Below, one piece after another: positions 37,240 through 62,606 of a stretch of DNA of 64,000 bases. The DNA comes from Burkholderiales bacterium. GTDB taxonomy: Bacteria > Pseudomonadota > Gammaproteobacteria > Burkholderiales > SG8-41. Every line of letters starts with the position of its first letter. Position 1 is the stretch's first letter. Under the pieces are notes generated by a model, which did not search any database, was not told the DNA's origin, and saw only the letters and a list, made by a program, of their open reading frames with translations. Position numbers and translations under genes: made by a program. The stretch covers positions 363-64,362 of the forward strand of contig JADZGE010000069.1 of assembly GCA_020854035.1 (NCBI GenBank), in the 5' to 3' direction.

Positions 37240-37920
37240 ATGAGCCCTGGCGTCACCCACGACATGTCGGTGCTGGGCCTGATCACCGGGGCGAGCGTGC
37301 TGGTGCAGCTCGTGATGGCGGGGCTGCTGCTCGCCTCCCTCCTTTCGTGGTACTACATCTTCCTCAAGACCTTCACCTTCAAGCGCGCGACGCGCCTCGC
37401 CGACGAGTTCGAGAAGGATTTTTGGAGTGGCGGCGACCTGAACGAGCTCTACCAGCGGGCGGCAGGCTCCCGCGGCGCGGGAACGCTGGAGCGCGTCTTC
37501 GAGGCGGGGTTCCGCGAGTTCGCGAAGCTGCGCAAGCAGCCCGGGATGGACGTCGCGGTGGTGATGGACGGCACCCGCCGCGCGATGCGCGCCACCTACC
37601 AGCGCGAAATGGAGCGCCTCGAGTCCCATCTCTCCTTCCTCGCCTCGGTCGGCTCGGTGAGTCCCTACGTGGGGCTCTTCGGCACGGTCTGGGGGATCAT
37701 GAATTCGTTCCGGGGCCTCGCCAACGTCGCGCAGGCCACCCTGGGACACGTCGCGCCGGGTATCGCGGAAGCGCTGATCGCCACCGCGATGGGGCTGTTC
37801 GCGGCGATCCCGGCGGTGATCGCCTACAACCGCTTCGCCGGGGACGTGAACCGCCTCGCCACGCGCTTCGATTCGTTCATGGAAGAGTTTTCGAACATAT
37901 TGCAGAGGCAGACGCACTAA
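37240..37920 (+). CDS. tolQ: Tol-Pal system protein TolQ
   Basis: MotA/TolQ/ExbB family, three TM helices, GLFGTVWGIMNSF. Confidence 0.95.
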   Translation: MSPGVTHDMSVLGLITGASVLVQLVMAGLLLASLLSWYYIFLKTFTFKRATRLADEFEKDFWSGGDLNELYQRAAGSRGAGTLERVFEAGFREFAKLRKQPGMDVAVVMDGTRRAMRATYQREMERLESHLSFLASVGSVSPYVGLFGTVWGIMNSFRGLANVAQATLGHVAPGIAEALIATAMGLFAAIPAVIAYNRFAGDVNRLATRFDSFMEEFSNILQRQTH

Positions 37921-37924
37921 GTCT

Positions 37925-37973
37925 GGTGATGGGTGATGGGTGATGGGTGACGAGGGACGCGGGAGGAGGGGCG
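37925..37973. repeat. 7 x 7-nt array, GGTGATG decaying towards the tolR RBS
   Basis: ggtgatg ggtgatg ggtgatg ggtgacg agggacg cgggagg aggggcg. This fills the tolQ-tolR spacer. Confidence 0.9.
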
Positions 37974-37977
37974 AACC

Positions 37978-38400
37978 ATGCTGATTGAACGGCGCAGCGG
38001 TCGCCGCCTGATGAACCAGATCAACGTCGTGCCCTACATCGACGTGATGCTGGTGCTGCTCGTGATCTTCATGGTCACCGCGCCGCTCATCAATCCCGGC
38101 CAGATCGAACTGCCGCAGGTGGGCAAGACCTCGGACCCGCCGGTCCAGCCGATGGAGGTGTCGATACGTGCGGACGGCTCCCTGTGGTTGCGCGATCGCG
38201 CGCGCGCCGGTGACGAGCGCAAGGTCTCGCGCAGCGAGCTTCTTGCCGCGATCCGGCAGAAGCAGAAGATGAATCCCGAGCAGGCCGTCGTGATCGCGGG
38301 CGACAAGGAGGTCCGCTACGAGTCCGTGCTCGAGGTGATGGACATGCTCCAGCAGAACCACGTGCGCAAGGTGGGGCTGCTCGCCAAGCCCCGCCCGTGA
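37978..38400 (+). CDS. tolR: Tol-Pal system protein TolR
   Basis: ExbD/TolR family: NVVPYIDVMLVLLVIFMVTAPL. Confidence 0.9.
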   Translation: MLIERRSGRRLMNQINVVPYIDVMLVLLVIFMVTAPLINPGQIELPQVGKTSDPPVQPMEVSIRADGSLWLRDRARAGDERKVSRSELLAAIRQKQKMNPEQAVVIAGDKEVRYESVLEVMDMLQQNHVRKVGLLAKPRP

Positions 38401-46762: not shown

Positions 46763-46896
46763 GCCGCCGATGAACGCCGATGTGACGAGTGCAAGCTCCG
46801 CGCGGCGGCGAGCGGCGGGGAACCCCCGACGTCACAACGCGGCACGTGAGATGACGCGCTGTTGACTCTATCGGCGTCTATCGGCGTCCATCGGCG
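46763..46896. repeat. inverted pair of CATCGGCG decamer arrays flanking an 84-nt spacer
   Basis: The left arm gccgccgatgaacgccgatg (46763-46782) is the reverse complement of TTCATCGGCG units. The right arm is tctatcggcg tctatcggcg tccatcggcg (46867-46896). The arms are complementary at 17 of 20 positions. Confidence 0.85.
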
Positions 46897-50719: not shown

Positions 50720-50890
50720 CGCCGCCGATGGATGCCGATGGACGCCGATAGAATGAGCACGGCCACGGTGGCGCATCGGCGCCGCGCCGTTGTCGCTGCC
50801 GGGAACGTCCCGGTCCTGAGGCGTGGAACGCATTGTGGTCGAGGCATGACGAGTCGCCAGAATCGGCGTTCATCGGCGTTCATCGGCGGC
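50720..50890. repeat. inverted pair of CATCGGCG decamer arrays flanking a spacer of about 106 nt
   Basis: The left arm cgccgatgga tgccgatgga cgccgataga (50723-50752) is the reverse complement of TCTATCGGCG-type units. The right arm is aatcggcg ttcatcggcg ttcatcggcg gc (50861-50890). Arm types are swapped relative to the 46.8 kb copy. Confidence 0.85.
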
Positions 50891-50911: not shown

Positions 50912-53233
50912 ATGGCGGCGAAGGCGAACAGGGAGGCACACGGCCATCACGACCCGGTCGGCCGCGTGGAGGACGCGCGGCTCGTCACGGGCAACGGCAA
51001 GTACGCCGCCGACTGGCGGCTGCCGGGGCAGCTCCACGCCCGTTTCGTGCGCGCCGACCGGGCGCACGCCGACATCGTTTCGATCGACGCTACGGCGGCG
51101 CTGCGCCACCCGGGCGTGAAGGCGGTGCTGACCGGCGAGGACGCGGTGCAGGCGGGTTACTTCACTGCGCCGAACGCGCTCAATTTCCCGGGCAGGAATG
51201 GCATGACGGCGATCGCGCCCAGGCGCCCGGCGCTCGCCCACGGGCGCGTGCGCTTCGTCGGCGAAGCGGTCGCGCTCGTCGTCGCCGCGACCCCCGCCGC
51301 GGCGCAGGATGCCGCCGAACTCGTCGCCGTCGAGTATCGCGACCGGGTCCCGGTCACGGCGCCCGAGGCGGCGCTCGCACCGGGGGCGCCGCGGATTCAC
51401 GACGAGGTGCCGGGCAACTGCCCTTTCGAATCGGAGGCCGGCAGCGCGGAGGCGGTCGCGGCAGCGATCGCGGCAGCCGCGCACGTGACGCGGCTGAAGG
51501 TCGTTTCGAACCGCGTCGCCCCCAGTCCCATGGAGCCTCGCGCCTGTATGGTCGAATGGGATGCGTCCCGCGATCACTACACCCTCTACGTCTGCTCGCA
51601 GGGCATTACCACCCAGCGCCAGCAGATGTCGGCCTGGACCGGGGTCAAGGGATCGCAGTTCACGATACACGCGCGCGACGTGGGCGGGGGCTTCGGCCAG
51701 CGCACGCTCGCCTACCCCGAGTATTGCGCGCTCATGATCGCGGCGAAAAAGCTCGGGCGGCCGGTGCAGTGGGTCGCCACCCGGGGCGAGGGTTTCATGG
51801 CCGATTCGCACGGGCGGGCGAACGTGATCGAGGGTGAGCTCGCGCTCGACGCGGGTGGGCGCTTTCTGGGGCTGCGGCTGTCGTGGGTGAACGACATGGG
51901 GTCGTACCTCTCGCCCGGCGCGATGGGACACATCCGCAACACGACGACCTGCATGACCGGGGTCTACCGCATCCCCGCGCTCTACGCTTCGTACCGGGTG
52001 GCCCTTACCAACACCACCCCGGTGGCGGCCTACCGGGGCGCGGGCCGTCCCGATATCGCCTACGTGGTGGAGCGCCTCGTGAGCGAGGCTGCGGCCGAAC
52101 TCGGAATCGACCCGGCGGAGCTGCGGCGGCGCAACTTCATCCCGGTGGAGGCCTTCCCGTACGCCACCCCGACTGGCTCGACCTACGAGTACGCGGACAT
52201 GCCGGGGTTGATCGAGAAGGCGCTGAAGCTCGCCGACTGGACGGGTTTCGCGGAACGCCGCGCGAAGACGGAGAAGAACGGGAAGCTCCGCGGCCTCGGC
52301 ATCGCGACGGTGATCGAGAACACCGGGGCGGGCAACGCGCCGAAGGACGACGCCGAGATCGAGGTCGGGGCGGACGGCATCGTCACCGTGCACACGCTCG
52401 CCAAGGCGCAGGGGCACGGCCACGAGACGACTTTCGCGCAGATCGTCGCCGGGGCGCTGGAGCTGCCGCTTGCGCGCGTGCGTGTCATGCAATGCGCGCC
52501 GGAGAAGCAGCAGTCGATGGTCGGCAACCACACCGGGGGATCGAGGAGCACGGTCGGCGCGGGCAGCGTCTGCCATCTCGCCGCGCTGAAGGCGATCGAC
52601 GAGGGCAAGGCCCGGGCGGCGCTCGTCCTTGGCGTGGAGCCCTCGCAGGTCGCCTACGCGCGGGGCGTCTTCGGCTCGACGGAGTCGGGGAAGAAGGTCG
52701 CGCTCGCGGACCTCGCGCGGGACGGGACGCCCTTCGCGGTCGCTGCGGAGGGCAGGTTCGGCTCCACTTTTCCCAACGGCTGCCACATCGCCGAGGTCGA
52801 GGTCGATCCCTCGACCGGCGCGACCGGGATCACCGCCTACAGCGCCGTGGACGACTGCGGCCGGGTGATCAACCATGCGATCGTGGAAGGTCAGCTCCAC
52901 GGCGGCGTCATGCAGGGCATCGGCCAGGTGCTCGGCGAGTCGATCGTATACGACGACGCGACGGGCCAGCTCCTCACCGGGAGCTTCATGGATTACTGCA
53001 TGCCGCGCGCCGGGTGGCTGCGCGGCATCAGCGGGCAGGAGCATGCGACGCCGAGCAAGGTGAGCCCGCTCGGCGTGAAGGGCATGGGCGAGTCGGGCTG
53101 CACCGGGTCGATCCCGGCGGTGGCGAACGCCGTCATGGATGCACTCCGGAGCGCGGGCGTGGGACACGTCGACATGCCGTTGACGCCGTCGCGAGTTTGG
53201 CTTGCACTGCAGTCGCGGCAGCGGAAGGGGTGA
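50912..53233 (+). CDS. xanthine dehydrogenase family molybdopterin-binding large subunit (form II CoxL-like), paralog 2
   Basis: 773 aa. Shares long near-identical blocks with paralog 1 (GKYAADWRLPGQLHA, GSTFPNGCHIAEVEVDP, TGQLLTGSFMDY). Loop VAAYRGAGRP. Confidence 0.9.
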   Translation: MAAKANREAHGHHDPVGRVEDARLVTGNGKYAADWRLPGQLHARFVRADRAHADIVSIDATAALRHPGVKAVLTGEDAVQAGYFTAPNALNFPGRNGMTAIAPRRPALAHGRVRFVGEAVALVVAATPAAAQDAAELVAVEYRDRVPVTAPEAALAPGAPRIHDEVPGNCPFESEAGSAEAVAAAIAAAAHVTRLKVVSNRVAPSPMEPRACMVEWDASRDHYTLYVCSQGITTQRQQMSAWTGVKGSQFTIHARDVGGGFGQRTLAYPEYCALMIAAKKLGRPVQWVATRGEGFMADSHGRANVIEGELALDAGGRFLGLRLSWVNDMGSYLSPGAMGHIRNTTTCMTGVYRIPALYASYRVALTNTTPVAAYRGAGRPDIAYVVERLVSEAAAELGIDPAELRRRNFIPVEAFPYATPTGSTYEYADMPGLIEKALKLADWTGFAERRAKTEKNGKLRGLGIATVIENTGAGNAPKDDAEIEVGADGIVTVHTLAKAQGHGHETTFAQIVAGALELPLARVRVMQCAPEKQQSMVGNHTGGSRSTVGAGSVCHLAALKAIDEGKARAALVLGVEPSQVAYARGVFGSTESGKKVALADLARDGTPFAVAAEGRFGSTFPNGCHIAEVEVDPSTGATGITAYSAVDDCGRVINHAIVEGQLHGGVMQGIGQVLGESIVYDDATGQLLTGSFMDYCMPRAGWLRGISGQEHATPSKVSPLGVKGMGESGCTGSIPAVANAVMDALRSAGVGHVDMPLTPSRVWLALQSRQRKG

Positions 53234-53294
53234 AGGGAAGGGGTGACGAGGAATGGTGACGGGAAGGGGTGACGGGAAATGGTGACGGGGGACG
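53230..53294. repeat. 5 x 13-nt tandem repeat (GTGACGGGAAnnG) starting on the stop codon
   Basis: gtgaagggaaggg gtgacgaggaatg gtgacgggaaggg gtgacgggaaatg gtgacgggggacg. The paralog 2 TGA is nt 2-4 of unit 1. Confidence 0.9.
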
Positions 53295-53355: not shown

Positions 53356-54156
53356 ATGTACGCGCTGAACTACGTGAAGGTGAAATCGGTGACGGAGGCG
53401 GTGGATCTCGTCGCCGCCAACCCGGAGGCGAAACTGCTCGCGGGCGGCATGACGCTCATCCCGACGTTGAAACAGCGCCTCGCGAGGCCCTCGCATCTGG
53501 TGGACATCGGGGGGCTCGCCGAGCTCGCCGGTATCGAGGTGAAGGGCGGCAGGCTCGTCGTGGGCGCGGGGACGAAGCACCACGAGGTCGCGACTTCCGC
53601 CGCCGTCGCGAAGTCGATCCCGGCGCTCGCGTCGCTCGCCGGACGGATCGGCGACCCGCAGGTGCGCAACATGGGCACCATCGGCGGGTCGGTCGCGAAC
53701 AACGATCCCGCGGCGGACTACCCGGCGGCGGTGCTGGGTTTGAACGCCGTCGTCGTCACCAGCAGGCGCGAGATCGCGGCCGACGATTTTTTCAAGGGTA
53801 TCTTCGCCACGGCGCTCGCCGACGGCGAAATCCTCGTGCGCCTCGAGTTCCCGCTGCCGAAGGCGGCGGCCTACGCCAAGTTTCCGCATCCGGCATCCGG
53901 CTTCGCGATGGCGGGCGTCATGGTCGCGGACACGGACTCGGGCGTGCGCGTGGCCGTGACCGGCGCGGGTCCCGGCGTCTTCCGCTGGCGCGAGGCGGAA
54001 GCGGCGCTGGGGAAATCGATGGCGGCCACGGCGCTCGAGGGTCTCGCGCTCGCCGCCGGCGAATTCAACGAGGACATCCACGGTACGCGCGAATACCGCG
54101 CGAACCTGGTGCGCGTCATGACGAAGCGCGCGCTCGCGCAGCTCGCCGGCAGGTAG
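53356..54156 (+). CDS. xanthine dehydrogenase family FAD-binding subunit (CoxM-like)
   Basis: 266 aa with LLAGGMTLIPTLK in an FAD-binding PCMH-type domain. Confidence 0.9.
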   Translation: MYALNYVKVKSVTEAVDLVAANPEAKLLAGGMTLIPTLKQRLARPSHLVDIGGLAELAGIEVKGGRLVVGAGTKHHEVATSAAVAKSIPALASLAGRIGDPQVRNMGTIGGSVANNDPAADYPAAVLGLNAVVVTSRREIAADDFFKGIFATALADGEILVRLEFPLPKAAAYAKFPHPASGFAMAGVMVADTDSGVRVAVTGAGPGVFRWREAEAALGKSMAATALEGLALAAGEFNEDIHGTREYRANLVRVMTKRALAQLAGR

Positions 54157-57221: not shown

Positions 57222-58427
57222 CTACAGGGTGGGGTTCACCACCTCTCCTCCCAGCGCCGCGAACCCCCACGCGGAAGCCTGCGTGTCCATGCTGAAGCTG
57301 ATGTGTCCGGCGAGTGCGTGGGCATCGCGAACGAGGCGCTCGAGCGGGTAGCTCGTGTAGATGCCGTTCGCGCCCGCCATCGCGTGCAGCAAATCCACCG
57401 CTTCGGTGGCGAGCCCGACCGCGTAGGCGAGGTTGCGCTTGAAGCGGAGCTTCGTCTGGATATCGGGCACTTCGCCCCGATTCGCGATCTCCTGCGCTTC
57501 CAGGCAGTCCCCGCGCAGCGTCAGGCGCGCGGTGTCGATCTTCGCGCCGGCCGCGCCGATCCGCAGCTGGACCGTCTGGAATTCCCGCATCTTCGACCCG
57601 GTGTAGCTGGTGCTCCGCTCCCTGACGAGAGCGATCGAATGTTCGAGCGCGGCCTGCGCGTTGCCCACGGCGCACGCGCCGATGCCGTGGCCGCCGACCG
57701 CGGAGAACGGCACGCGGTAGAGCGGGCTGGAATTCAAGAGCGCGCCGGGAAAGCGGCCCCCGCCCAGCACGTCGTAGGCGCAGAGCGCCCGGTGATCGGG
57801 CACGAACACGTCGTTCGCGACGACCGTCATGCTGCCCGTCGCGCGCATGCCGAGCACGTGCCAGTCGTCAACCACTTCGTAGTCGGAAGAGGGCACGAGG
57901 CAGGTTCGATGATCGACGACCCGCTCGCCCTCGCGCACCACGGCCGAGAGCATGTTCCAGCCGGAGAGGCCGACGCAGCTCGAGAAGTTCCAGCGGCCGG
58001 AGAGCACGAAACCGCCGCCGACCCGGCGCGCGCGGCCCTGCGGAAAGGCGACGCCGGAGGCGATAAAGGCTTCGGGGTCCACGCCCCAGACCTCCTCCTG
58101 CGCCCGCTCGTCGTACATCGCGAGCATCCAGTGGTGGATCTGGAGGTTGGCGAGGCACCACGCCGTCGAGGCGCAGCCGCGCGCGATCTCCAGCGGGAAA
58201 TCCACGTACGCGACGTAGTCGAACTCCATCCCGCCCCGCCGCTTCGGCTGGAGTGTGCGCACGAGGCCCGACGCGTGCAGGTCGTGGATGGTTTCCGGGA
58301 CGAGCGTGCGCGCCGCCTCGGCGGCCGCCGCGCGCTCCCGCAGCCGGGGCACGAGCGCTCGCGCTCGCGCGATAGCCTCCTCGTAGCTGACGCCGGAGAA
58401 GTCCGGCGCCCGCCGCAGGGAGTCCAC
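57222..58427 (-). CDS. acyl-CoA dehydrogenase-fold flavin-dependent monooxygenase (group D oxygenase component)
   Basis: 401 aa with an ACAD-like three-domain layout. The N-terminal region (ETIHDLHASGLVRTLQPKRRGG) resembles HsaA/HpaH-C2-type oxygenases rather than true acyl-CoA dehydrogenases. No reductase gene is present in the window. Confidence 0.7.
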   Translation of the reverse strand: MDSLRRAPDFSGVSYEEAIARARALVPRLRERAAAAEAARTLVPETIHDLHASGLVRTLQPKRRGGMEFDYVAYVDFPLEIARGCASTAWCLANLQIHHWMLAMYDERAQEEVWGVDPEAFIASGVAFPQGRARRVGGGFVLSGRWNFSSCVGLSGWNMLSAVVREGERVVDHRTCLVPSSDYEVVDDWHVLGMRATGSMTVVANDVFVPDHRALCAYDVLGGGRFPGALLNSSPLYRVPFSAVGGHGIGACAVGNAQAALEHSIALVRERSTSYTGSKMREFQTVQLRIGAAGAKIDTARLTLRGDCLEAQEIANRGEVPDIQTKLRFKRNLAYAVGLATEAVDLLHAMAGANGIYTSYPLERLVRDAHALAGHISFSMDTQASAWGFAALGGEVVNPTL

Positions 58428-58434
58428 GCGCGCT

Positions 58435-58968
58435 TTACCGCCGCGCGCCGCGAGCGGCCCGCCGCGGCGTGGCCTTCCGGCCGGCGCGGCGCGCGCGGGC
58501 CCTGCCGTTCGCGCGCGGCATCTTCGAGTAATCCTCGCCGCCCCAGCCGGGATCGGCCTTCACCACGCCGAAGAAGTTCAACTCGATGGTGAGCCCGTCC
58601 GGGTCCTTGAGGAAGAGCTGGAAAAGCTCCGCCTCGGGGAGGCTCCTCGGGCGCACCTTGATGCCGAGCTTGCGAAAGCGCTCCACGAATCCGCCGGGAT
58701 CGGTCGCCAGGAAGGCAATGTGGTCGATTACGCCGGAGTTGTTCCTCGCGGCGTTCCTCGGGCTGCCAAGGTAGTAGAGCGCGGAGTTGGGCACGCCGGC
58801 CTGCGCCAGGTGGACCTGGATCTTGCCGTCCACGCCCAGCCAGTAGCCGGGAAACGGAAACTCAGGCCGGCGCATGACCTCGAAGCCCAGAACCTTGACG
58901 TAGAAATCCTTCGTGCGCTCGAGATTGTTGGCACGCATGAGGTAATGATTGAGCTCGGTTACTGGCAT
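58435..58968 (-). CDS. VOC (glyoxalase/bleomycin resistance/dioxygenase) family protein with an Arg-rich tail
   Basis: Single VOC module (LNHYLMRANNLERTKDFYVKVLGF...IDHIAF...LKDPDGLTIEL) plus a basic tail of about 40 aa (RARARRAGRKATPRRAARGARR). Confidence 0.75.
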   Translation of the reverse strand: MPVTELNHYLMRANNLERTKDFYVKVLGFEVMRRPEFPFPGYWLGVDGKIQVHLAQAGVPNSALYYLGSPRNAARNNSGVIDHIAFLATDPGGFVERFRKLGIKVRPRSLPEAELFQLFLKDPDGLTIELNFFGVVKADPGWGGEDYSKMPRANGRARARRAGRKATPRRAARGARR

Positions 58969-59035
58969 AATTCCCTCTGCAGCGCCAAACCGGGAATGGG
59001 CGTCCGGCGCCGCGGTATTTTAACCGCTCCGCGCC

Positions 59036-59210
59036 ATGAGCTATCGGCTTTGAGCTCCGTGCTGCGCGCTTCGGGCCATGAACTTTGAGCTATTGGCTGT
59101 GAGCCGTGGGCTGTGAGCTGTGAGGTCGCCCCTCGTTCGCAACCCGTAGCCCATAGCCCAAAGCCCATGGCTCAAGGCTCACAGCCCATAGCTCATAGCT
59201 CATAGCGAGG
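59036..59210. repeat. 25 in-register heptamers: 13 x nTGAGCT-like, a 21-nt centre, then 8-9 x AGCYCAY (inverted)
   Basis: atgagct atcggct ttgagct ccgtgct gcgcgct tcgggcc atgaact ttgagct attggct gtgagcc gtgggct gtgagct gtgaggt | cgcccct cgttcgc aacccgt | agcccat agcccaa agcccat ggctcaa ggctcac agcccat agctcat agctcat agcgagg. Positions 59078-59105 are complementary to 59176-59203 at 25 of 28 positions. Confidence 0.95.
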
Positions 59211-59218
59211 AAGACGAC

Positions 59219-60190
59219 ATGGGAATGCTGGTAGAGGGCGTGTGGCAGGATGTCCCGCGCGACACGCGTGCGACGGGCGGCGCGTTCGTGCGGCCCGAGT
59301 CCGTGTTCCGCGACCGCGTGACGGCAGACGGGTCCTCGGGCTTCAGGGCCGAGCCGGGGCGCTACCACCTGTACGTCTCCTACGCGTGCCCGTGGGCGCA
59401 CCGCACGATCGTCTTCCGTGCCCTCAAGGGACTGGAGCGGGTGATCACGATGTCCGCGGCCGACCCGGTAAGCGAGCCGAACGGCTGGACCTACGAGAGC
59501 CGGCCCGACACCGCGAACGGCGTGCGCCATCTCCACGAGGCGTACGTCAGGGCGCGGCGCGATTACACGGGCCGGGTGACGGTGCCGGCGCTCTGGGACC
59601 GCGAGAGGCAGACCATCGTCAACAACGAGTCTTCCGAGATCATCCGGATGCTCAATACCGCGTTCGACGCGTTCGCGACGCGCGAGCTGCCGGACATGTA
59701 CCCGGACGCACTGCGCGGGGAAATCGACCGCTGGAACGACTTGATCTACCCCTCCGTCAACAACGGCGTCTACCGCGCGGGCTTCGCCACCGCGCAGGAC
59801 AAGTACGAGGAGGCCGCGCGCGGCGTGTTCGATACCTTCGACCGGCTGGAGCGGCATCTCGCGGGCAGCCGCTATCTCTGCGGCGACAGCGTGACGGAAG
59901 CGGACTGGCGCCTGTTCACGACCCTCGTGCGCTTCGACAGCGTCTACCACTACCACTTCAAGTGCAACCTCGCGCGGCTCACCGACTATCCGGGCCTCTG
60001 GGCCTATACCCGCGAGCTCTACCAGTATCCCGGCGTCGCGGCGACCGTGGATCTCAAGGAAATCAAGGAGCACTACTACCGCAGCCAGCCGCGCGTCAAT
60101 CCGAGCGGTGTGGTCGCAATCGGCCCGCGCCTCGACGAGCGGGATTTCATGGCGCCGCACGGCCGGGACGTGGTAAAGGTGACGGGATGA
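59219..60190 (+). CDS. Xi-class glutathione transferase (glutathionyl-hydroquinone reductase, YqjG/PcpF-like)
   Basis: Signature YVSYACPWAHRT (CPWA catalytic Cys), 323 aa. Confidence 0.9.
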   Translation: MGMLVEGVWQDVPRDTRATGGAFVRPESVFRDRVTADGSSGFRAEPGRYHLYVSYACPWAHRTIVFRALKGLERVITMSAADPVSEPNGWTYESRPDTANGVRHLHEAYVRARRDYTGRVTVPALWDRERQTIVNNESSEIIRMLNTAFDAFATRELPDMYPDALRGEIDRWNDLIYPSVNNGVYRAGFATAQDKYEEAARGVFDTFDRLERHLAGSRYLCGDSVTEADWRLFTTLVRFDSVYHYHFKCNLARLTDYPGLWAYTRELYQYPGVAATVDLKEIKEHYYRSQPRVNPSGVVAIGPRLDERDFMAPHGRDVVKVTG

Positions 60191-60210
60191 TGGTGACGCG
60201 CGGTTCGCAT

Positions 60211-60294
60211 CGTCACTCGTATCTCGTCACTCGTATCTCGTCACCCGTATCCCGTCACCCGTATCCCGTCACCCGTATCTTGCCACCTCCTTTG
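60211..60294. repeat. 6 x 14-nt tandem repeat (CGTCACYCGTATCY; complement contains GGTGACG)
   Basis: cgtcactcgtatct x2, cgtcacccgtatcc x2, cgtcacccgtatct, then the degenerate tgccacctcctttg. Lies between the GST stop and the coxL-like paralog 3 start. Confidence 0.95.
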
Positions 60295-60311
60295 CGCGAA
60301 AAGGCAGAGCC

Positions 60312-62606
60312 GTGACCAGCGAGTTCAAGGGCCGGCGCGAGGATTACCGCCTCGTGACGGGACAGGGCAGGTACGCATCGGACTGGAACCTGCCGGGGCA
60401 GGTGCACGGGGCCTTCCTGCGCGCGGACCGGGCGCACGCGGACATCGTCTCGATCGACACGGCGCGGGCGAAGAAGGCGCCGGGGGTCGTCGCGGTGCTG
60501 ACGGGCGCGGACCTCGCTTCCGAGAAGCTGGGCGTCCCGCCGCCGCACGTCAAGTTCCCGGGACGCGGCGGCATGGCGCTGAAGGTTCCGCACCGCGACC
60601 TGCTGGCACGAGACCGGGTGCGTTTCGTCGGACAGGAAGTGGCGCTGGTTCTCGCCGAAGCCCCTGCTGCCGCGCGCGACGCCGCCGATCTCATCGACGT
60701 GGCTTACCGTGACCTTCCCGTGGTGACGGTCGGCGAGGCGGCGCTGGCGGCGGGCGCGCCGCAGTTGCACGCGGAAATCCCGGGTAACCTCTGCTTCGAC
60801 TACCAGTACGGCGACGAGGCGAGAACGGCGGAGGCTTTCGCGCGCGCGGCCCACGTGGCGCGCGTCACCCTGACCGCGCAGCGGATGGTGGGCAACCCGA
60901 TGGAGCCGCGTGCCTGCCTCGCGGCCTGGGACGCCGCGGCGGAACGCTACGACCTGTGGTCGTGCTCGCAGGGGATGTCGCATATCCTGTCGGGACTGTC
61001 GGGCATTTTCGGGCTGCCCGAAGCGAGATTCCGGGCGCACGCACGGGACGTGGGCGGCGGCTTCGGTATACGTACCGACGCCTACGTCGAGTATGCGGCG
61101 GCGCTCGTCGCCGCGCGCCGGCTCGGCCGGCCGGTGAAGTGGGTGTCCTCGCGCTCCGAGACCTTCCTCTCCGACTACCAGGGCCGCGACGTGCTGCTGG
61201 AGGGCGCGCTCGCACTCGACGGCGCGGGCCGGTTTATCGGGCTCCGCGTGAACTGGCTCTGCAACATGGGCGCCTACCTGTCGCAGCCCGGCCCGATCAT
61301 CAACACTCTCCCCGCGACGACGCACATGGTGAACGCCTACCGCATCCCGGTGCTTCACGGCAGGCACCGCCTGGCGTTCACCAACACGGCGCCGACCACG
61401 GCGTATCGCGGCGCCTTCCGGCCGAACGTGAGCTACCTCCTCGAAAGCCTCGCGGAGCAGGCTGCGCGCGAGACGGGTATCGACCGAGTGGCGCTCCGGC
61501 GCCGCAACGTCATCCCGCGAGAAGCGTTCCCACATCAGACGCCGACCGTCGTCTACGACAGCGGCGACCCTCCGGGATTGCTCGATCTCGCGGTCGAGCA
61601 ATCCTCATGGAAGACATTCGATGGCAGGCGCGATGCCTCGAAGCGCGAGGGCAGGTTGCGGGGGATCGGCTGCGCGGTGTTCATCGAGCCCTCGGGCGGC
61701 GGGACCGCGCCCAGGGAGGAGGTCGCGATCAAGTTCGGCGATTCCGGAAACGCGTCGATCTACACTCTCGCGGGCCCGTCGGGGCAGGGGCACGAGACCG
61801 TGTTTCCCGATATCGTCGCGGAGGTGCTGGGCCTGAGCGCGGAGAAGCTGGTCCTTCACGCGAGCGACCCGGCAGGACCGGCGCTCGTCGGCGGTGGCAC
61901 GATCTCCTCGCGCTCGTCGATCTCGCACGGCAGCGCGATGGTGTTCGCGGCGCGCGAGGTGATCCGCAAGGCGCTCGATCTCGCGGCGAAGGACCTCGAA
62001 GTCGCGCCCGCCGACCTGGAGTTCGTGGCCGGCGAGTTCCGCGTCAAGGGCACGGACTTGAGGGTGGCGATGGAAACCCTCGCCCGCAGGCATGCAAGCG
62101 CGCTCGATTCGATGGGCGAGATTCCGACGCCGCGCTCCTACGCGGGCGGCGCGCACGTGGCGGAGGTCGAGATCGACCCCGAGACCGGCGCGATCGAGCT
62201 CCTGCGCTACGTCGCGGCCGACGACTGCGGGCGGGTACTGAACCACACGCTCCTCGACGGGCAGCTCCACGGCGGCATCGTGCAGGGGGCGGGACAGGCG
62301 CTGGGCGAGCACTGCCGCTACGACCCCGCCACGGGGCAGCTCCTTACCGGGAGCTTCATGGACTACTACATGCCGCGCGCGGGGCTGCTGCGCGACGTGC
62401 GGCTCTTCGACCACTGCGTGCCCGCGCCGGGCAATCCCCTCGGCGTGAAAGGGGCGGGCGAAGCCGGCACGACCGGGGCCGTGCCCGCCATCGCCAACGC
62501 GGTGCTGGACGCGCTCGCGCCGCTGAAGATACGGCAGCTCGAGTTTCCCTACACCCCGGCGCGGGTGTGGGAGGCGATACGGGCTGCCAGGCGGAATCAG
62601 GATTAG
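60312..62606 (+). CDS. xanthine dehydrogenase family molybdopterin-binding large subunit, paralog 3 (divergent)
   Basis: GTG start, 764 aa. The active-site loop variant is TAYRGAFRP (about 61401-61421). No adjacent M or S subunit genes. Confidence 0.9.
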   Translation: MTSEFKGRREDYRLVTGQGRYASDWNLPGQVHGAFLRADRAHADIVSIDTARAKKAPGVVAVLTGADLASEKLGVPPPHVKFPGRGGMALKVPHRDLLARDRVRFVGQEVALVLAEAPAAARDAADLIDVAYRDLPVVTVGEAALAAGAPQLHAEIPGNLCFDYQYGDEARTAEAFARAAHVARVTLTAQRMVGNPMEPRACLAAWDAAAERYDLWSCSQGMSHILSGLSGIFGLPEARFRAHARDVGGGFGIRTDAYVEYAAALVAARRLGRPVKWVSSRSETFLSDYQGRDVLLEGALALDGAGRFIGLRVNWLCNMGAYLSQPGPIINTLPATTHMVNAYRIPVLHGRHRLAFTNTAPTTAYRGAFRPNVSYLLESLAEQAARETGIDRVALRRRNVIPREAFPHQTPTVVYDSGDPPGLLDLAVEQSSWKTFDGRRDASKREGRLRGIGCAVFIEPSGGGTAPREEVAIKFGDSGNASIYTLAGPSGQGHETVFPDIVAEVLGLSAEKLVLHASDPAGPALVGGGTISSRSSISHGSAMVFAAREVIRKALDLAAKDLEVAPADLEFVAGEFRVKGTDLRVAMETLARRHASALDSMGEIPTPRSYAGGAHVAEVEIDPETGAIELLRYVAADDCGRVLNHTLLDGQLHGGIVQGAGQALGEHCRYDPATGQLLTGSFMDYYMPRAGLLRDVRLFDHCVPAPGNPLGVKGAGEAGTTGAVPAIANAVLDALAPLKIRQLEFPYTPARVWEAIRAARRNQD

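What the first reader, a model, noticed from the sequence alone, without database searches (positions are those of the whole stretch)
59036..59210. A 175-nt block of 25 in-register heptamers forms an inverted structure across a divergent promoter region
The 250-bp spacer between the VOC/monooxygenase operon (minus strand) and the GS-hydroquinone reductase/coxL-like operon (plus strand) is almost entirely one heptamer lattice. It has 13 forward nTGAGCT-like units, three centre units, then 8-9 AGCYCAY units, which are the reverse complement word. The 7-nt register is never broken across the centre. Positions 59078-59105 and 59176-59203 are complementary at 25 of 28 positions, so a long cruciform or RNA hairpin is possible. 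The last unit (agcgagg) supplies the RBS of the downstream gene. A repeat lattice in this position could set promoter spacing, act as a multi-site operator, or vary by slippage.
Basis: seen in the sequence. Interest (0 to 1): 0.65.

Follow-up and report, generated by a model that had tools for sequence, protein, structure and literature searches.

The report
Inverted heptamer-repeat hairpin before a gene
The 175-base block is real: two opposed runs of a degenerate 7-base simple repeat that can fold into one long hairpin just upstream of a glutathione-transferase gene, but it is a fast-changing repeat of an already described kind, not a conserved control site.

Summary
Window 59036-59210 reads as 25 in-register heptamers: 13 nTGRGCY units, 3 centre units and 8 exact RGCYCAn units plus one degenerate unit. 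The claimed 25-of-28 complementarity is exact, and the fold is far stronger than shuffles (RNA z about -6.5).

Relatives keep the same gene order (VOC gene, then divergent GST and coxL-like genes). Their spacers share a fixed part: VOC ribosome site, a small hairpin whose sequence differs between lineages, and a conserved box TATTGTAAT. The segment from the box to the GST start varies from 7 to 195 nt, and the lattice lies wholly inside it.

- Six lineages have no lattice.
- Two have only direct heptamers.
- Four others have their own inverted heptamer lattice with a different word (ACGAGCY/RGCTCG, GCTGCAA/TTGCAGC). The two arms are complementary in every case.
- Near-identical contigs show no change in unit number.

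Arrays of the same word occur in many phyla, and 13% of them have an inverted partner. Inverted pairs of heptamer repeats are already described in Xanthomonas. A heptamer-repeat hairpin in a 5' leader is described for Haemophilus hmw1A.

Best reading: an aged heptanucleotide simple repeat plus inverted duplication, probably transcribed as a long hairpin in the GST leader. A specific operator is not supported. It is a new member of a known kind, of modest interest.

The parts
58972..58977 (-). Ribosome-binding site of the VOC gene (GAGGGA on the minus strand). The VOC start codon is at 58966-58968.
   Evidence: Read directly from the sequence. CAT followed by a CTCC-type motif is conserved in all related spacers.
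58999..59011 (.). Small GC-rich hairpin between the VOC start and the conserved box. Relatives have a hairpin at the same place with a different sequence.
   Evidence: Examples: L130 ATGAAATGCGGGC...GCCCGCATTTCAT and L137 GGAACGGCGAGG...CCTCGCCGTTCC.
59016..59023 (.). Conserved box, TATTTTAA here and (A/C)TATTGTAAT in relatives, about 45-52 nt from the VOC start. It reads TAAAAT/TACAAT on the minus strand and TATTTT/TATTGT/TGTAAT on the plus strand, so it is a candidate overlapping -10 region for both divergent genes.
   Evidence: Comparison of 12 related spacers. The promoter role is inferred; the consensus promoter scan found nothing.
59036..59126 (+). Forward arm: 13 heptamers of the form nTGRGCY. 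Units 4-6 are degenerate and form a side branch in the predicted fold.
59127..59147 (.). Centre of three non-repeat heptamer lengths (CGCCCCT CGTTCGC AACCCGT). This is the loop region of the hairpin.
59148..59203 (+). Reverse arm: 8 exact RGCYCAn heptamers, the reverse complement of the forward word. The order of the outer four units mirrors forward units 7-10, including GTGAGCC against GGCTCAC.
59207..59213 (+). Shine-Dalgarno sequence GAGGAAG of the GST (GS-hydroquinone-reductase-like) gene, whose ATG is at 59219. It overlaps the degenerate 'unit 25'.
59143..59166 (-). Potential G-quadruplex motif on the minus strand (GGGCTTTGGGCTATGGGCTACGGG), created by the AGCCCAn variants of the unit.
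   Evidence: There are 7 such motifs in the whole window on both strands.
60178..60280 (+). Second inverted repeat lattice, at the 3' side of the same GST gene. GGTGACG words overlap the GST stop codon, followed by five copies of TCGTCACYCGTATC, which carry the reverse-complement word.
   Evidence: RNA fold z -2.3. Relatives have inverted short-repeat words (heptamer arrays in L130, L133, L131) at the same place with other words.

Best explanation
The block is an inverted pair of degenerate heptanucleotide simple-sequence-repeat arrays.

Origin. It grew in place, in the one segment of the VOC/GST divergent spacer that is free to vary: between the conserved TATTGTAAT-type box and the GST ribosome site. 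Growth was by replication slippage in steps of one or more units (copies lie 14, 28 or 35 nt apart), together with an inverted duplication or template switch that made the second arm.

What it does. When single-stranded, the two arms pair into one long imperfect hairpin. The most likely setting is RNA. If the GST/coxL-like operon is transcribed from the conserved box, the whole lattice is a leader of about 190 nt, and the hairpin ends at the Shine-Dalgarno sequence. There it would act as a generic long double-stranded leader element, for example an RNase III target or a modulator of mRNA stability or translation. It would not act as a sequence-specific binding site.

Shown: the anatomy, the fold potential, the position in the variable segment, the turnover of length and word among relatives with arm complementarity kept, and the lack of variation between near-identical contigs.

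Inferred: the transcription start at the box, any effect on expression, and the mutational route.

The confidence of 0.55 is for the whole statement. I put the identity (a locus-bound inverted heptamer simple repeat, not a conserved operator) at about 0.85, and the leader-RNA function at about 0.35.
For: - Anatomy and statistics.
- Fold. The leader folds at -98.8 kcal/mol in the window and -97.1 in L130, z about -7. Non-lattice relatives give z about 0.
- Position. Twelve related spacers share the order VOC start, RBS, small hairpin, box. They differ only between the box and the GST ATG, by 7 to 195 nt. In the short versions (L138 19 nt, L137 30 nt, L135 7 nt) the box sits where a -10 element of a short or leaderless GST transcript would be.
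- Turnover with pairing kept. The words are TGAGCT/AGCTCA in the window, ACGAGCY x15 / RGCTCG x7 in L130, GCGAGCC/AGCTCGT in L133, and GCTGCAA/TTGCAGC in L005. The T-A to C-G difference between window and L130/L133 appears on both arms.
- The same gene's 3' spacer also carries inverted repeat words (heptamer arrays in L130, L133, L131) in several lineages, each with its own word.
- The kind is general. Arrays of this word occur in Acidobacteriota, Gemmatimonadota, Lysobacterales, Chloroflexota and other groups. 16 of 122 array clusters have an inverted partner within 200 nt.
- Literature. Heptamers are the commonest long-unit simple repeat, Burkholderia is among the richest genera, and polymerase slippage was proposed (Mrazek 2007, as summarised in PMC4679880). 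About 70-75 inverted pairs of heptamer arrays per Xanthomonas genome vary between species and are mostly transcribed (PMC4692102). The hmw1A heptamer repeat lies in a 5'-UTR hairpin cut by RNase III (PMC12721329).
Against: - There are no transcript data, and the consensus promoter scan found no sigma-70-like site in 58700-59500.
- In this window the box is changed (TATTTTAA), so the GST promoter could lie elsewhere.
- Predicted accessibility of the SD is no different between lattice and non-lattice leaders, so a simple translation block is not indicated.
- Half of the related lineages do without any lattice, so any function is dispensable.
- Arm complementarity could be kept by quasipalindrome template-switch correction, with no selection at all.
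Confidence: 0.55

Rival explanations
1. Neutral mutational by-product. The lattice comes only from slippage of a 7-nt unit plus template-switch 'correction' of a quasipalindrome. It sits in a stretch of spacer under no constraint and has no effect on either operon.
For: - It is absent from six related lineages with the same gene pair.
- Word and length turn over quickly.
- The units are degenerate, with at most two identical neighbours.
- SD accessibility does not differ.
- Slippage and sequence-directed palindrome conversion are both established ideas (PMC4060949).
Against: - Inverted lattices recur at both flanks of the same gene in several lineages. Complementarity is kept while the word changes.
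- 13% of same-word arrays in unrelated phyla have an inverted partner, far above chance.
- Both points suggest the hairpin is either favoured or made by a specific mechanism. Neither separates selection from mechanism.
Confidence: 0.28
2. DNA-level control element. The heptamers would be a multi-site operator for a repeat-binding regulator, or would set the spacing or geometry of the two divergent promoters.
For: - It lies in a divergent promoter region.
- Genome-specific heptamer arrays have been annotated as putative global regulator sites in Geobacter (PMC2700814).
- A second word (GGTGAYG) recurs as arrays at four places in this window.
Against: - It is not conserved in orthologous spacers, and the word differs where a lattice exists.
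- This word has no second array in the 64-kb window.
- The 7-bp period is out of phase with the helix.
- The conserved element of the spacer is the box outside the lattice.
Confidence: 0.06
3. Contingency locus. Unit number changes at high frequency and switches or grades GST/coxL expression, as in the hmw1A system.
For: It is a heptamer repeat between a promoter-like box and the start codon, with a hairpin, which resembles hmw1A. Unit number differs among related lineages.
Against: - Four sets of near-identical contigs from different samples show identical unit numbers.
- The repeats are impure, which lowers slippage rates.
- The organism is a free-living soil betaproteobacterium, and the gene is a metabolic enzyme.
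Confidence: 0.04
4. Mobile palindromic element (REP/BIME- or MITE-like) inserted into the spacer.
For: It is long and palindromic, intergenic, and present in some relatives and absent in others.
Against: - There is no second copy in 64 kb.
- There are no distinct termini or target duplication.
- Relatives carry lattices of graded length and word at exactly the same position, which fits evolution in place.
- Only 64 kb of this genome could be searched.
Confidence: 0.03
5. G-quadruplex-forming heptamer repeat on the template strand, like the GGGNATC repeats of Xanthomonas.
For: The minus strand at 59143-59166 is a canonical G3-N4 x4 motif made by the AGCCCAn units. G4-forming heptamer repeats are known (PMC4692102).
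Against: - Only four of about 22 units contribute.
- Most units are AGCTCA/TGAGCT, with no G-tract.
- Related lattices (L133, L005) lack the motif.
- The competing duplex or hairpin is very stable.
Confidence: 0.03

Closest known systems
Long simple sequence repeats with 5-11-nt units, above all heptanucleotide repeats, in free-living bacteria (Mrazek, Guo and Shah 2007, as summarised in PMC4679880 and PMC4692102)
   Same: Tandem 7-nt units, intergenic, in a betaproteobacterium (Burkholderia was among the richest genera). Unit number and sequence differ between relatives. A slippage origin is proposed.
   Different: Here two arrays of opposite polarity form one hairpin, and the units are degenerate rather than pure.
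Inverted pairs of GGGAATC heptamer arrays in Xanthomonas campestris and X. axonopodis (Rehm et al. 2015, PMC4692102)
   Same: Two heptamer arrays in convergent orientation close together, able to form stem-loops. Extensive length and sequence variation at orthologous intergenic sites. Mostly transcribed.
   Different: The word is different (TGAGCT, not G-rich). G4 potential is only local, on one strand. The Xanthomonas repeats are under-represented between divergent genes, whereas this one lies between divergent genes. Abundance of this word in this genome is unknown; the 64 kb holds one locus.
Haemophilus influenzae hmw1A/hmw2A (ATCTTTC)n repeat in the 5'-UTR (Rapun-Araiz et al. 2025, PMC12721329)
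   Same: A heptamer repeat lies between promoter and start codon and forms one arm of a long leader hairpin (122 nt there, about 170 nt here).
   Different: In hmw the right arm is a unique G-rich stretch, not a reverse-complement array. Those repeats are pure and phase-variable, and RNase III cleavage is shown by experiment. Here nothing is shown by experiment and no variation in unit number was seen.
TAACTGA direct heptamer repeats just upstream of start codons in marine Beggiatoaceae and cyanobacteria (MacGregor 2015, PMC4679880)
   Same: Heptamer arrays that end within a few nucleotides of a start codon. A post-transcriptional role is proposed.
   Different: Those are short (2-6 copies), direct and of one genome-wide word, with only one inverted case reported. 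Here the array is long and inverted, and the word differs between lineages.
REP/BIME and MITE palindromic intergenic elements
   Same: Intergenic and hairpin-forming.
   Different: Those are dispersed copies of a defined sequence with defined ends. This is a locus-bound tandem-repeat lattice that changes in place.

Membership tests
Heptanucleotide long simple sequence repeat (LSSR) | Head-to-tail iteration of a 5-11-nt unit well beyond chance | tested here: met
   TRF period 7/14/21. 13 + 8 in-register units. Lag-7 scan gives 2 segments in 64 kb against 0 in shuffles.
Heptanucleotide long simple sequence repeat (LSSR) | Non-coding location | tested here: met
   It lies between the VOC start (58968) and the GST start (59219), as shown by the ORFs and Pfam hits.
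Heptanucleotide long simple sequence repeat (LSSR) | Unit number and sequence differ between related genomes at the same site | tested here: met
   0 to about 25 units in 12 related spacers, with the word differing between lineages.
Inverted heptamer-array pairs (Xanthomonas type, PMC4692102) | Two arrays of the same unit on opposite strands, close together | tested here: met
   Forward arm 59036-59126, reverse arm 59148-59203, 21-nt centre.
Inverted heptamer-array pairs (Xanthomonas type, PMC4692102) | G-rich unit GGGNATC with four G-tracts able to form a quadruplex | tested here: not met
   The unit is nTGRGCY. Only one local G3N4 x4 motif exists, on the minus strand at 59143-59166.
Inverted heptamer-array pairs (Xanthomonas type, PMC4692102) | Hundreds of copies of one word per genome | not testable with these tools
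   Only 64 kb of this genome is available, and it holds one locus of this word. A different word, GGTGAYG, forms four arrays.
Phase-variable contingency repeat (hmw1A type) | Unit number varies among near-identical strains or within populations | tested here: not met
   window = L001; L002 = L003; L005-L010 identical; L133 vs L134 differ by one SNP only. Sampling is small and these are consensus assemblies.
Phase-variable contingency repeat (hmw1A type) | Pure, identical repeat units | tested here: not met
   The longest run of identical adjacent units is 2.
Phase-variable contingency repeat (hmw1A type) | Repeat transcribed in the 5'-UTR, with the hairpin cleaved by RNase III | not testable with these tools
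   No transcript data. The position between the conserved box and the SD is compatible.
REP/BIME or MITE | Multiple dispersed copies of the same element with defined ends (terminal repeats, target duplication) | tested here: not met
   No other copy in the window. Graded lattices occur at the orthologous site in relatives. The test is limited to 64 kb.
Intrinsic transcription terminator | Stem-loop plus U-tract downstream of a gene's stop codon | tested here: not met
   The lattice lies between two divergent start codons. The only terminator-like hit is the small hairpin at 58999-59011.
Operator or iteron array for a DNA-binding regulator | Sequence conserved at orthologous promoters, with spacing in phase with the helix (about 10-11 bp or multiples) | tested here: not met
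   The lattice is absent or has a different word in orthologous spacers. The period is 7 bp.
Any curated RNA family (Rfam 15) | Match at or above the family's gathering score | tested here: not met
   Only sub-threshold matches to microRNA-precursor models, which fit any long hairpin.

The most novel reading that the evidence does not exclude
Hairpins built from heptamer arrays may be a selected, lineage-wide RNA module that brackets the GST cistron at its 5' leader and its 3' intercistronic spacer. The two arms would co-evolve in concert, so the word turns over while pairing is kept. The module would be read by a structure-specific factor (RNase III) or a factor with heptamer periodicity (a Csp-like protein). 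More broadly, a common undescribed mechanism may seed inverted TGAGCY-type arrays across unrelated soil phyla.
Probability: 0.12. Interest if true: 0.6.

Novelty: new member of a known kind. Interest (0 to 1): 0.33.

Why it matters
The block looks striking, but it does not need a new kind of regulatory element to explain it. It is a clear example of how heptanucleotide simple repeats can build a long hairpin at one intergenic site and remodel it quickly.

The comparative series found here is a natural experiment. The same gene pair carries 0 to 25 units, with several different words, and the arms are always complementary. This could be used to test two questions. One is whether arm complementarity in repeat-built hairpins is kept by selection on an RNA structure or by template-switch mutation. 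The other is whether such leaders are RNase III substrates outside Haemophilus.

For annotation, the lesson is that the conserved TATTGTAAT box next to the lattice is the better candidate control site of this divergent promoter region, not the lattice.

Tried and rejected
- Rfam scan of 58000-61000 at permissive E-values gave only sub-threshold microRNA-precursor hits, which are generic long-hairpin matches. Rejected.
- The sigma-70 promoter scan of 58700-59500 found nothing. By eye I also saw no usable -35/-10 pair or sigma-54 site inside the lattice (and the sequence).
- SD and AUG accessibility from partition-function folding gave no consistent difference between lattice and non-lattice leaders. 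The simple 'SD-sequestering hairpin' idea is therefore not supported.
- Register continuity across the centre is not shared by L130 or L133. Dropped as a chance feature.
- An exact-protein look-up of the VOC protein found nothing. The GST look-up gave one identical short Logan contig.
- The Mrazek 2007 PNAS paper could not be retrieved by PMC id or DOI. It is cited only through two papers that summarise it.
- Gene-context classification of 122 same-word arrays used a crude ORF/GC3 caller. Contexts were mixed and about a quarter fell 'in ORF', which is probably inflated by spurious ORFs. I use only the count of inverted partners.
- An unbiased period-7 scan of 394 kb (window plus GST-selected contigs) found arrays almost only around this GST gene. 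The idea that every spacer of this lineage is heptamer-filled was toned down.
- Small upstream ORFs in the lattice (ATGAGCTATCGGCTTTGA and others) were considered and dismissed, because the word is not conserved among relatives.

Full report

Yes. Reading 59036-59210 in steps of seven gives these units:

| Units | Form | Quality |
|---|---|---|
| 1-13 | nTGRGCY | 6 exact, 5 with one mismatch, 2 with two (units 4 and 5) |
| 14-16 | unrelated centre | not repeat units |
| 17-24 | RGCYCAn (the reverse-complement word) | all 8 exact |
| 25 (AGCGAGG) | degenerate | 3 mismatches; it is the start of the SD GAGGAAG (59207-59213), 6 nt before the GST ATG at 59219 |

- The claimed pairing of 59078-59105 with 59176-59203 is 25/28.
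- The repeat finder reports arms of 36-59 nt at 75-81% complementarity. It also reports direct copies 14, 28 or 35 nt apart.
- Ten copies of the word fall in one 100-nt stretch. Nowhere else in 64 kb has more than three.
- A lag-7 identity scan finds only this place and 37918-37977, and nothing in shuffles.
- Folding 59020-59220 gives -98.8 kcal/mol as + strand RNA (z -6.5), -106.1 as - strand RNA (z -6.7), and z -4.65 as DNA.

Two claims need trimming. The lattice is 70% of the 250-nt spacer, not nearly all of it. The unbroken register across the centre has a 1-in-7 chance and is not shared by the related lattices.

**2. Surroundings**

- 58435-58968 (-) is a VOC/Glyoxalase-family protein.
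- 57222-58427 (-) is an Acyl-CoA_dh_2-type flavoenzyme.
- 59219-60190 (+) is a GST with GST_N_2/GST_C_2 domains. Some sources name its homologues glutathionyl-hydroquinone reductase.
- 60312-62606 (+) is a MoCo-binding coxL-like protein.

The window is 69% G+C. The nearest named relatives of the GST are uncultured Burkholderiales and Betaproteobacteria MAGs. No Rfam family matches; only sub-threshold microRNA-precursor hits appear, as expected for any long hairpin. No sigma-70-like promoter passes the consensus scan.

**3. Related loci**

I collected contigs that encode GST relatives of 73-84% identity and keep the order VOC(-) / GST(+) / coxL(+).

All spacers begin the same way from the VOC side: start codon, CTCC-type ribosome site, a small GC hairpin whose sequence differs from lineage to lineage, then a conserved box (A/C)TATTGTAAT about 45-52 nt from the VOC start. 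In the window the box is TATTTTAA at 59016-59023. It reads as a good -10 hexamer on the minus strand (TACAAT, or TAAAAT in the window). On the plus strand it reads as a fair one (TATTGT or TGTAAT, TATTTT in the window).

Everything between the box and the GST ATG is variable, from 7 to 195 nt:

| Locus | Box-to-ATG distance | Content of the variable segment |
|---|---|---|
| L135 | 7 nt | no lattice |
| L138 | 19 nt | no lattice |
| L154 | 29 nt | no lattice |
| L137 | 30 nt | no lattice |
| L002/L003 | 64 nt | no lattice |
| L004 | 103 nt | no lattice |
| L131 | 73 nt | direct heptamers only (AACTYGA) |
| L132 | 74 nt | direct heptamers only (TTGGAAT) |
| L133/L134 | 99 nt | about 5 GCGAGCC-type units, then about 5 AGCTCGT-type units |
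| L005-L010 | 104 nt | GGCTKCA units, then TGCAGCC-type units |
| L136 | 136 nt | a looser inverted lattice |
| L130 | 170 nt | about 15 ACGAGCY/ATGGGCT units abutting 7 RGCTCGn units |
| window | 195 nt | the 25-heptamer lattice |

The lattice-bearing leaders of the window and L130 fold far better than shuffles (z about -7). The non-lattice leaders do not.

The word differs between loci, but the two arms of each locus are complementary. The T-A pair of the window's unit (TGAGCT/AGCTCA) is a C-G pair on both arms in L130 and L133.

**4. Is it varying now?**

No sign of it. The window and a Logan contig are identical over the spacer. L002 equals L003. Six JGI samples give the identical L005-type spacer. 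L133 and L134 differ by one substitution and not in unit number. The units are impure, with at most two identical neighbours, which lowers slippage. The lattice therefore changes on the time scale of species divergence, not of populations, as far as these few consensus assemblies can show.

**5. Is it a special property of this site or a general kind?**

Both flanks of the GST gene carry such structures. In the window, GGTGACG words overlap the GST stop codon and are followed by five copies of TCGTCACYCGTATC, which carry the reverse-complement word. At the same place:
- L130 and L133 have AAGGATG x3 facing CATCCTT x3, and L133 has an extra ~100 nt in the loop.
- L131 has GTGACAC facing GTCAC x4.
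- L002 and L004 have CTGACG facing CGTCAG.

I also ran a period-7 scan over 394 kb of sequence that was not chosen for repeats (the window plus the GST-selected contigs). Arrays appeared almost only around this gene, plus 37920-37970.

It returned 119 loci from Acidobacteriota, Gemmatimonadota, Lysobacterales, Chloroflexota, Bacteroidota, Planctomycetota, Streptomyces and others. In 16 of 122 array clusters an array of at least three units of the reverse-complement word lies within 200 nt. By chance that would essentially never happen. My crude gene calls place these clusters in mixed contexts: tandem, convergent and divergent.

**6. What is known**

- Heptanucleotide repeats are the most abundant class among simple repeats with 5-11-nt units. 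Burkholderia genomes are among the richest, and polymerase slippage over a roughly 7-nt contact was proposed. This is Mrazek et al. 2007, as summarised in PMC4679880 and PMC4692102. I could not read the original.
- Rehm et al. (PMC4692102) describe GGGAATC heptamer arrays in Xanthomonas. There are 70-75 cases per genome of two arrays in convergent orientation that could form stem-loops. Length and sequence vary extensively between two species at the same intergenic sites. Most repeats are transcribed, and they are under-represented between divergent genes.
- Rapun-Araiz et al. (PMC12721329) show that the hmw1A (ATCTTTC)n repeat of Haemophilus influenzae is transcribed in the 5'-UTR. It forms the left arm of a 122-nt hairpin and is processed by RNase III.
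- MacGregor (PMC4679880) describes TAACTGA heptamer arrays just upstream of start codons.
- Heptamer arrays were annotated as putative regulatory elements in Geobacter metallireducens (PMC2700814).

Inverted heptamer arrays and heptamer-repeat leader hairpins are therefore both on record.

**7. How it most likely works**

Shown:
- The lattice occupies exactly the unconstrained segment of the spacer.
- It is built from multi-unit duplications.
- Its arms are complementary.
- Length and word turn over among relatives.

Inferred:
- It grew in place by slippage plus an inverted duplication or template switch. The outer four units of the two arms mirror each other in order, including the distinctive GTGAGCC/GGCTCAC pair.
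- The GST operon is transcribed from the conserved box. The short-spacer relatives leave no other room for a promoter. This would make the lattice a leader of about 190 nt that folds into a long imperfect duplex ending at the SD.

Such a duplex is a generic RNase III-type substrate, and it may affect mRNA half-life or translation. I could not show any effect. SD accessibility is no different from relatives without a lattice, and six lineages lack the lattice altogether.

The main rival is that it does nothing and is kept palindromic by template-switch correction. A sequence-specific operator, promoter-spacing device, phase-variable switch, mobile element, terminator or G-quadruplex repeat each fail at least one test (see the membership table). 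A cruciform in duplex DNA is unlikely from general knowledge, because the arms are only about 80% complementary and the centre is at least 21 nt.

**8. Verdict**

The feature is real and was accurately described. Its interpretation as a locus-specific regulatory lattice is not supported. It is a new member of a known kind: intergenic heptanucleotide simple repeats in inverted pairs. The comparative series is modestly interesting, because it shows word turnover with arm complementarity kept, on both flanks of one gene. Interest is 0.33. The most novel reading still open is a selected, co-evolving hairpin module, or a common mechanism that seeds such arrays across phyla. I put that at about 0.12.

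Noticed in passing
window 60178-60280: A second inverted repeat lattice lies between the GST stop (60190) and the coxL-like start (60312). GGTGACG words overlap the stop codon and are followed by five copies of TCGTCACYCGTATC (94% matches by TRF). Relatives have inverted short-repeat words (heptamer arrays in L130, L133, L131) of other words at the same position (L130/L133 AAGGATG/CATCCTT, L131 GTGACAC/GTCAC, L002/L004 CTGACG/CGTCAG).
   Followed up: partly
window 53223-53289: Five copies of a 13-mer (GGAAGGGGTGACG) carry the same GGTGACG word. They overlap the end of a coxL-like ORF (50912-53233) and precede a coxM-like FAD-binding gene (53356-54156). No inverted partner was seen.
   Followed up: partly
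window 37925-37974: GGTGATG x3.7 runs into GACGAGG-type units. It fills the spacer between an ExbB-family gene (stop at 37920) and a 140-aa ORF that starts at 37978. This is the same GGTGAYG word as at 53242 and 60178, so a second heptamer word recurs at four places in 64 kb.
   Followed up: partly
window 46867-46896, 50723-50749, 50862-50888: Three triplets of a 10-nt repeat share the core ATCGGCG (TCTATCGGCG x3; its reverse complement CGCCGATGGA x2.7; ATCGGCGTTC x2.7). They lie next to a Cys/Met PLP-enzyme gene and on both sides of the spacer between two coxL-like genes. The 10-nt period is one helical turn, so these are better operator candidates than the heptamer lattice.
   Followed up: no
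window 58996-59025, and the same place in L002, L004, L130, L131, L133, L137, L138, L154: A conserved box (A/C)TATTGTAAT (TATTTTAA in the window) is preceded by a small hairpin whose sequence differs in every lineage but stays palindromic. It lies about 45-52 nt from the VOC start. It is likely the real control region of the divergent pair: overlapping -10 elements and a VOC leader hairpin or operator.
   Followed up: partly
window 59143-59166, minus strand: A canonical G-quadruplex motif, GGGCTTTGGGCTATGGGCTACGGG, is formed by the AGCCCAn unit variants. It is one of 7 such motifs in the window.
   Followed up: partly
window 58949-58959 and 59050-59060: The lattice word with its flank (TTGAGCTCGGT / TTGAGCTCCGT) also occurs inside the first codons of the VOC gene, about 100 nt away (10 of 11 identical). 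It may be chance, or the seed of the repeat.
   Followed up: no
L028, L044-L047, L052, L055, L061, L067, L071, L079, L085 (coordinates): Hairpins built from 4-6 tandem units of the same word family (GGCTCAG...CTGAGCC, TGAGCTG...AGCTCAA, AGCCCAG...TGGGCTT) occur in Acidobacteriota, Gemmatimonadota, Lysobacterales, a delta-proteobacterium and candidate division FCPU426. They are often right after a stop codon. In L045 the hairpin is followed by a T-run like a terminator.
   Followed up: partly
L133 3455-3660 compared with L130 2038-2130: The two loci share the AAGGATG / CATCCTT hairpin after the GST stop, but L133 has about 100 extra nucleotides in the loop. This shows that the loops of these hairpins accept insertions.
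   Followed up: no
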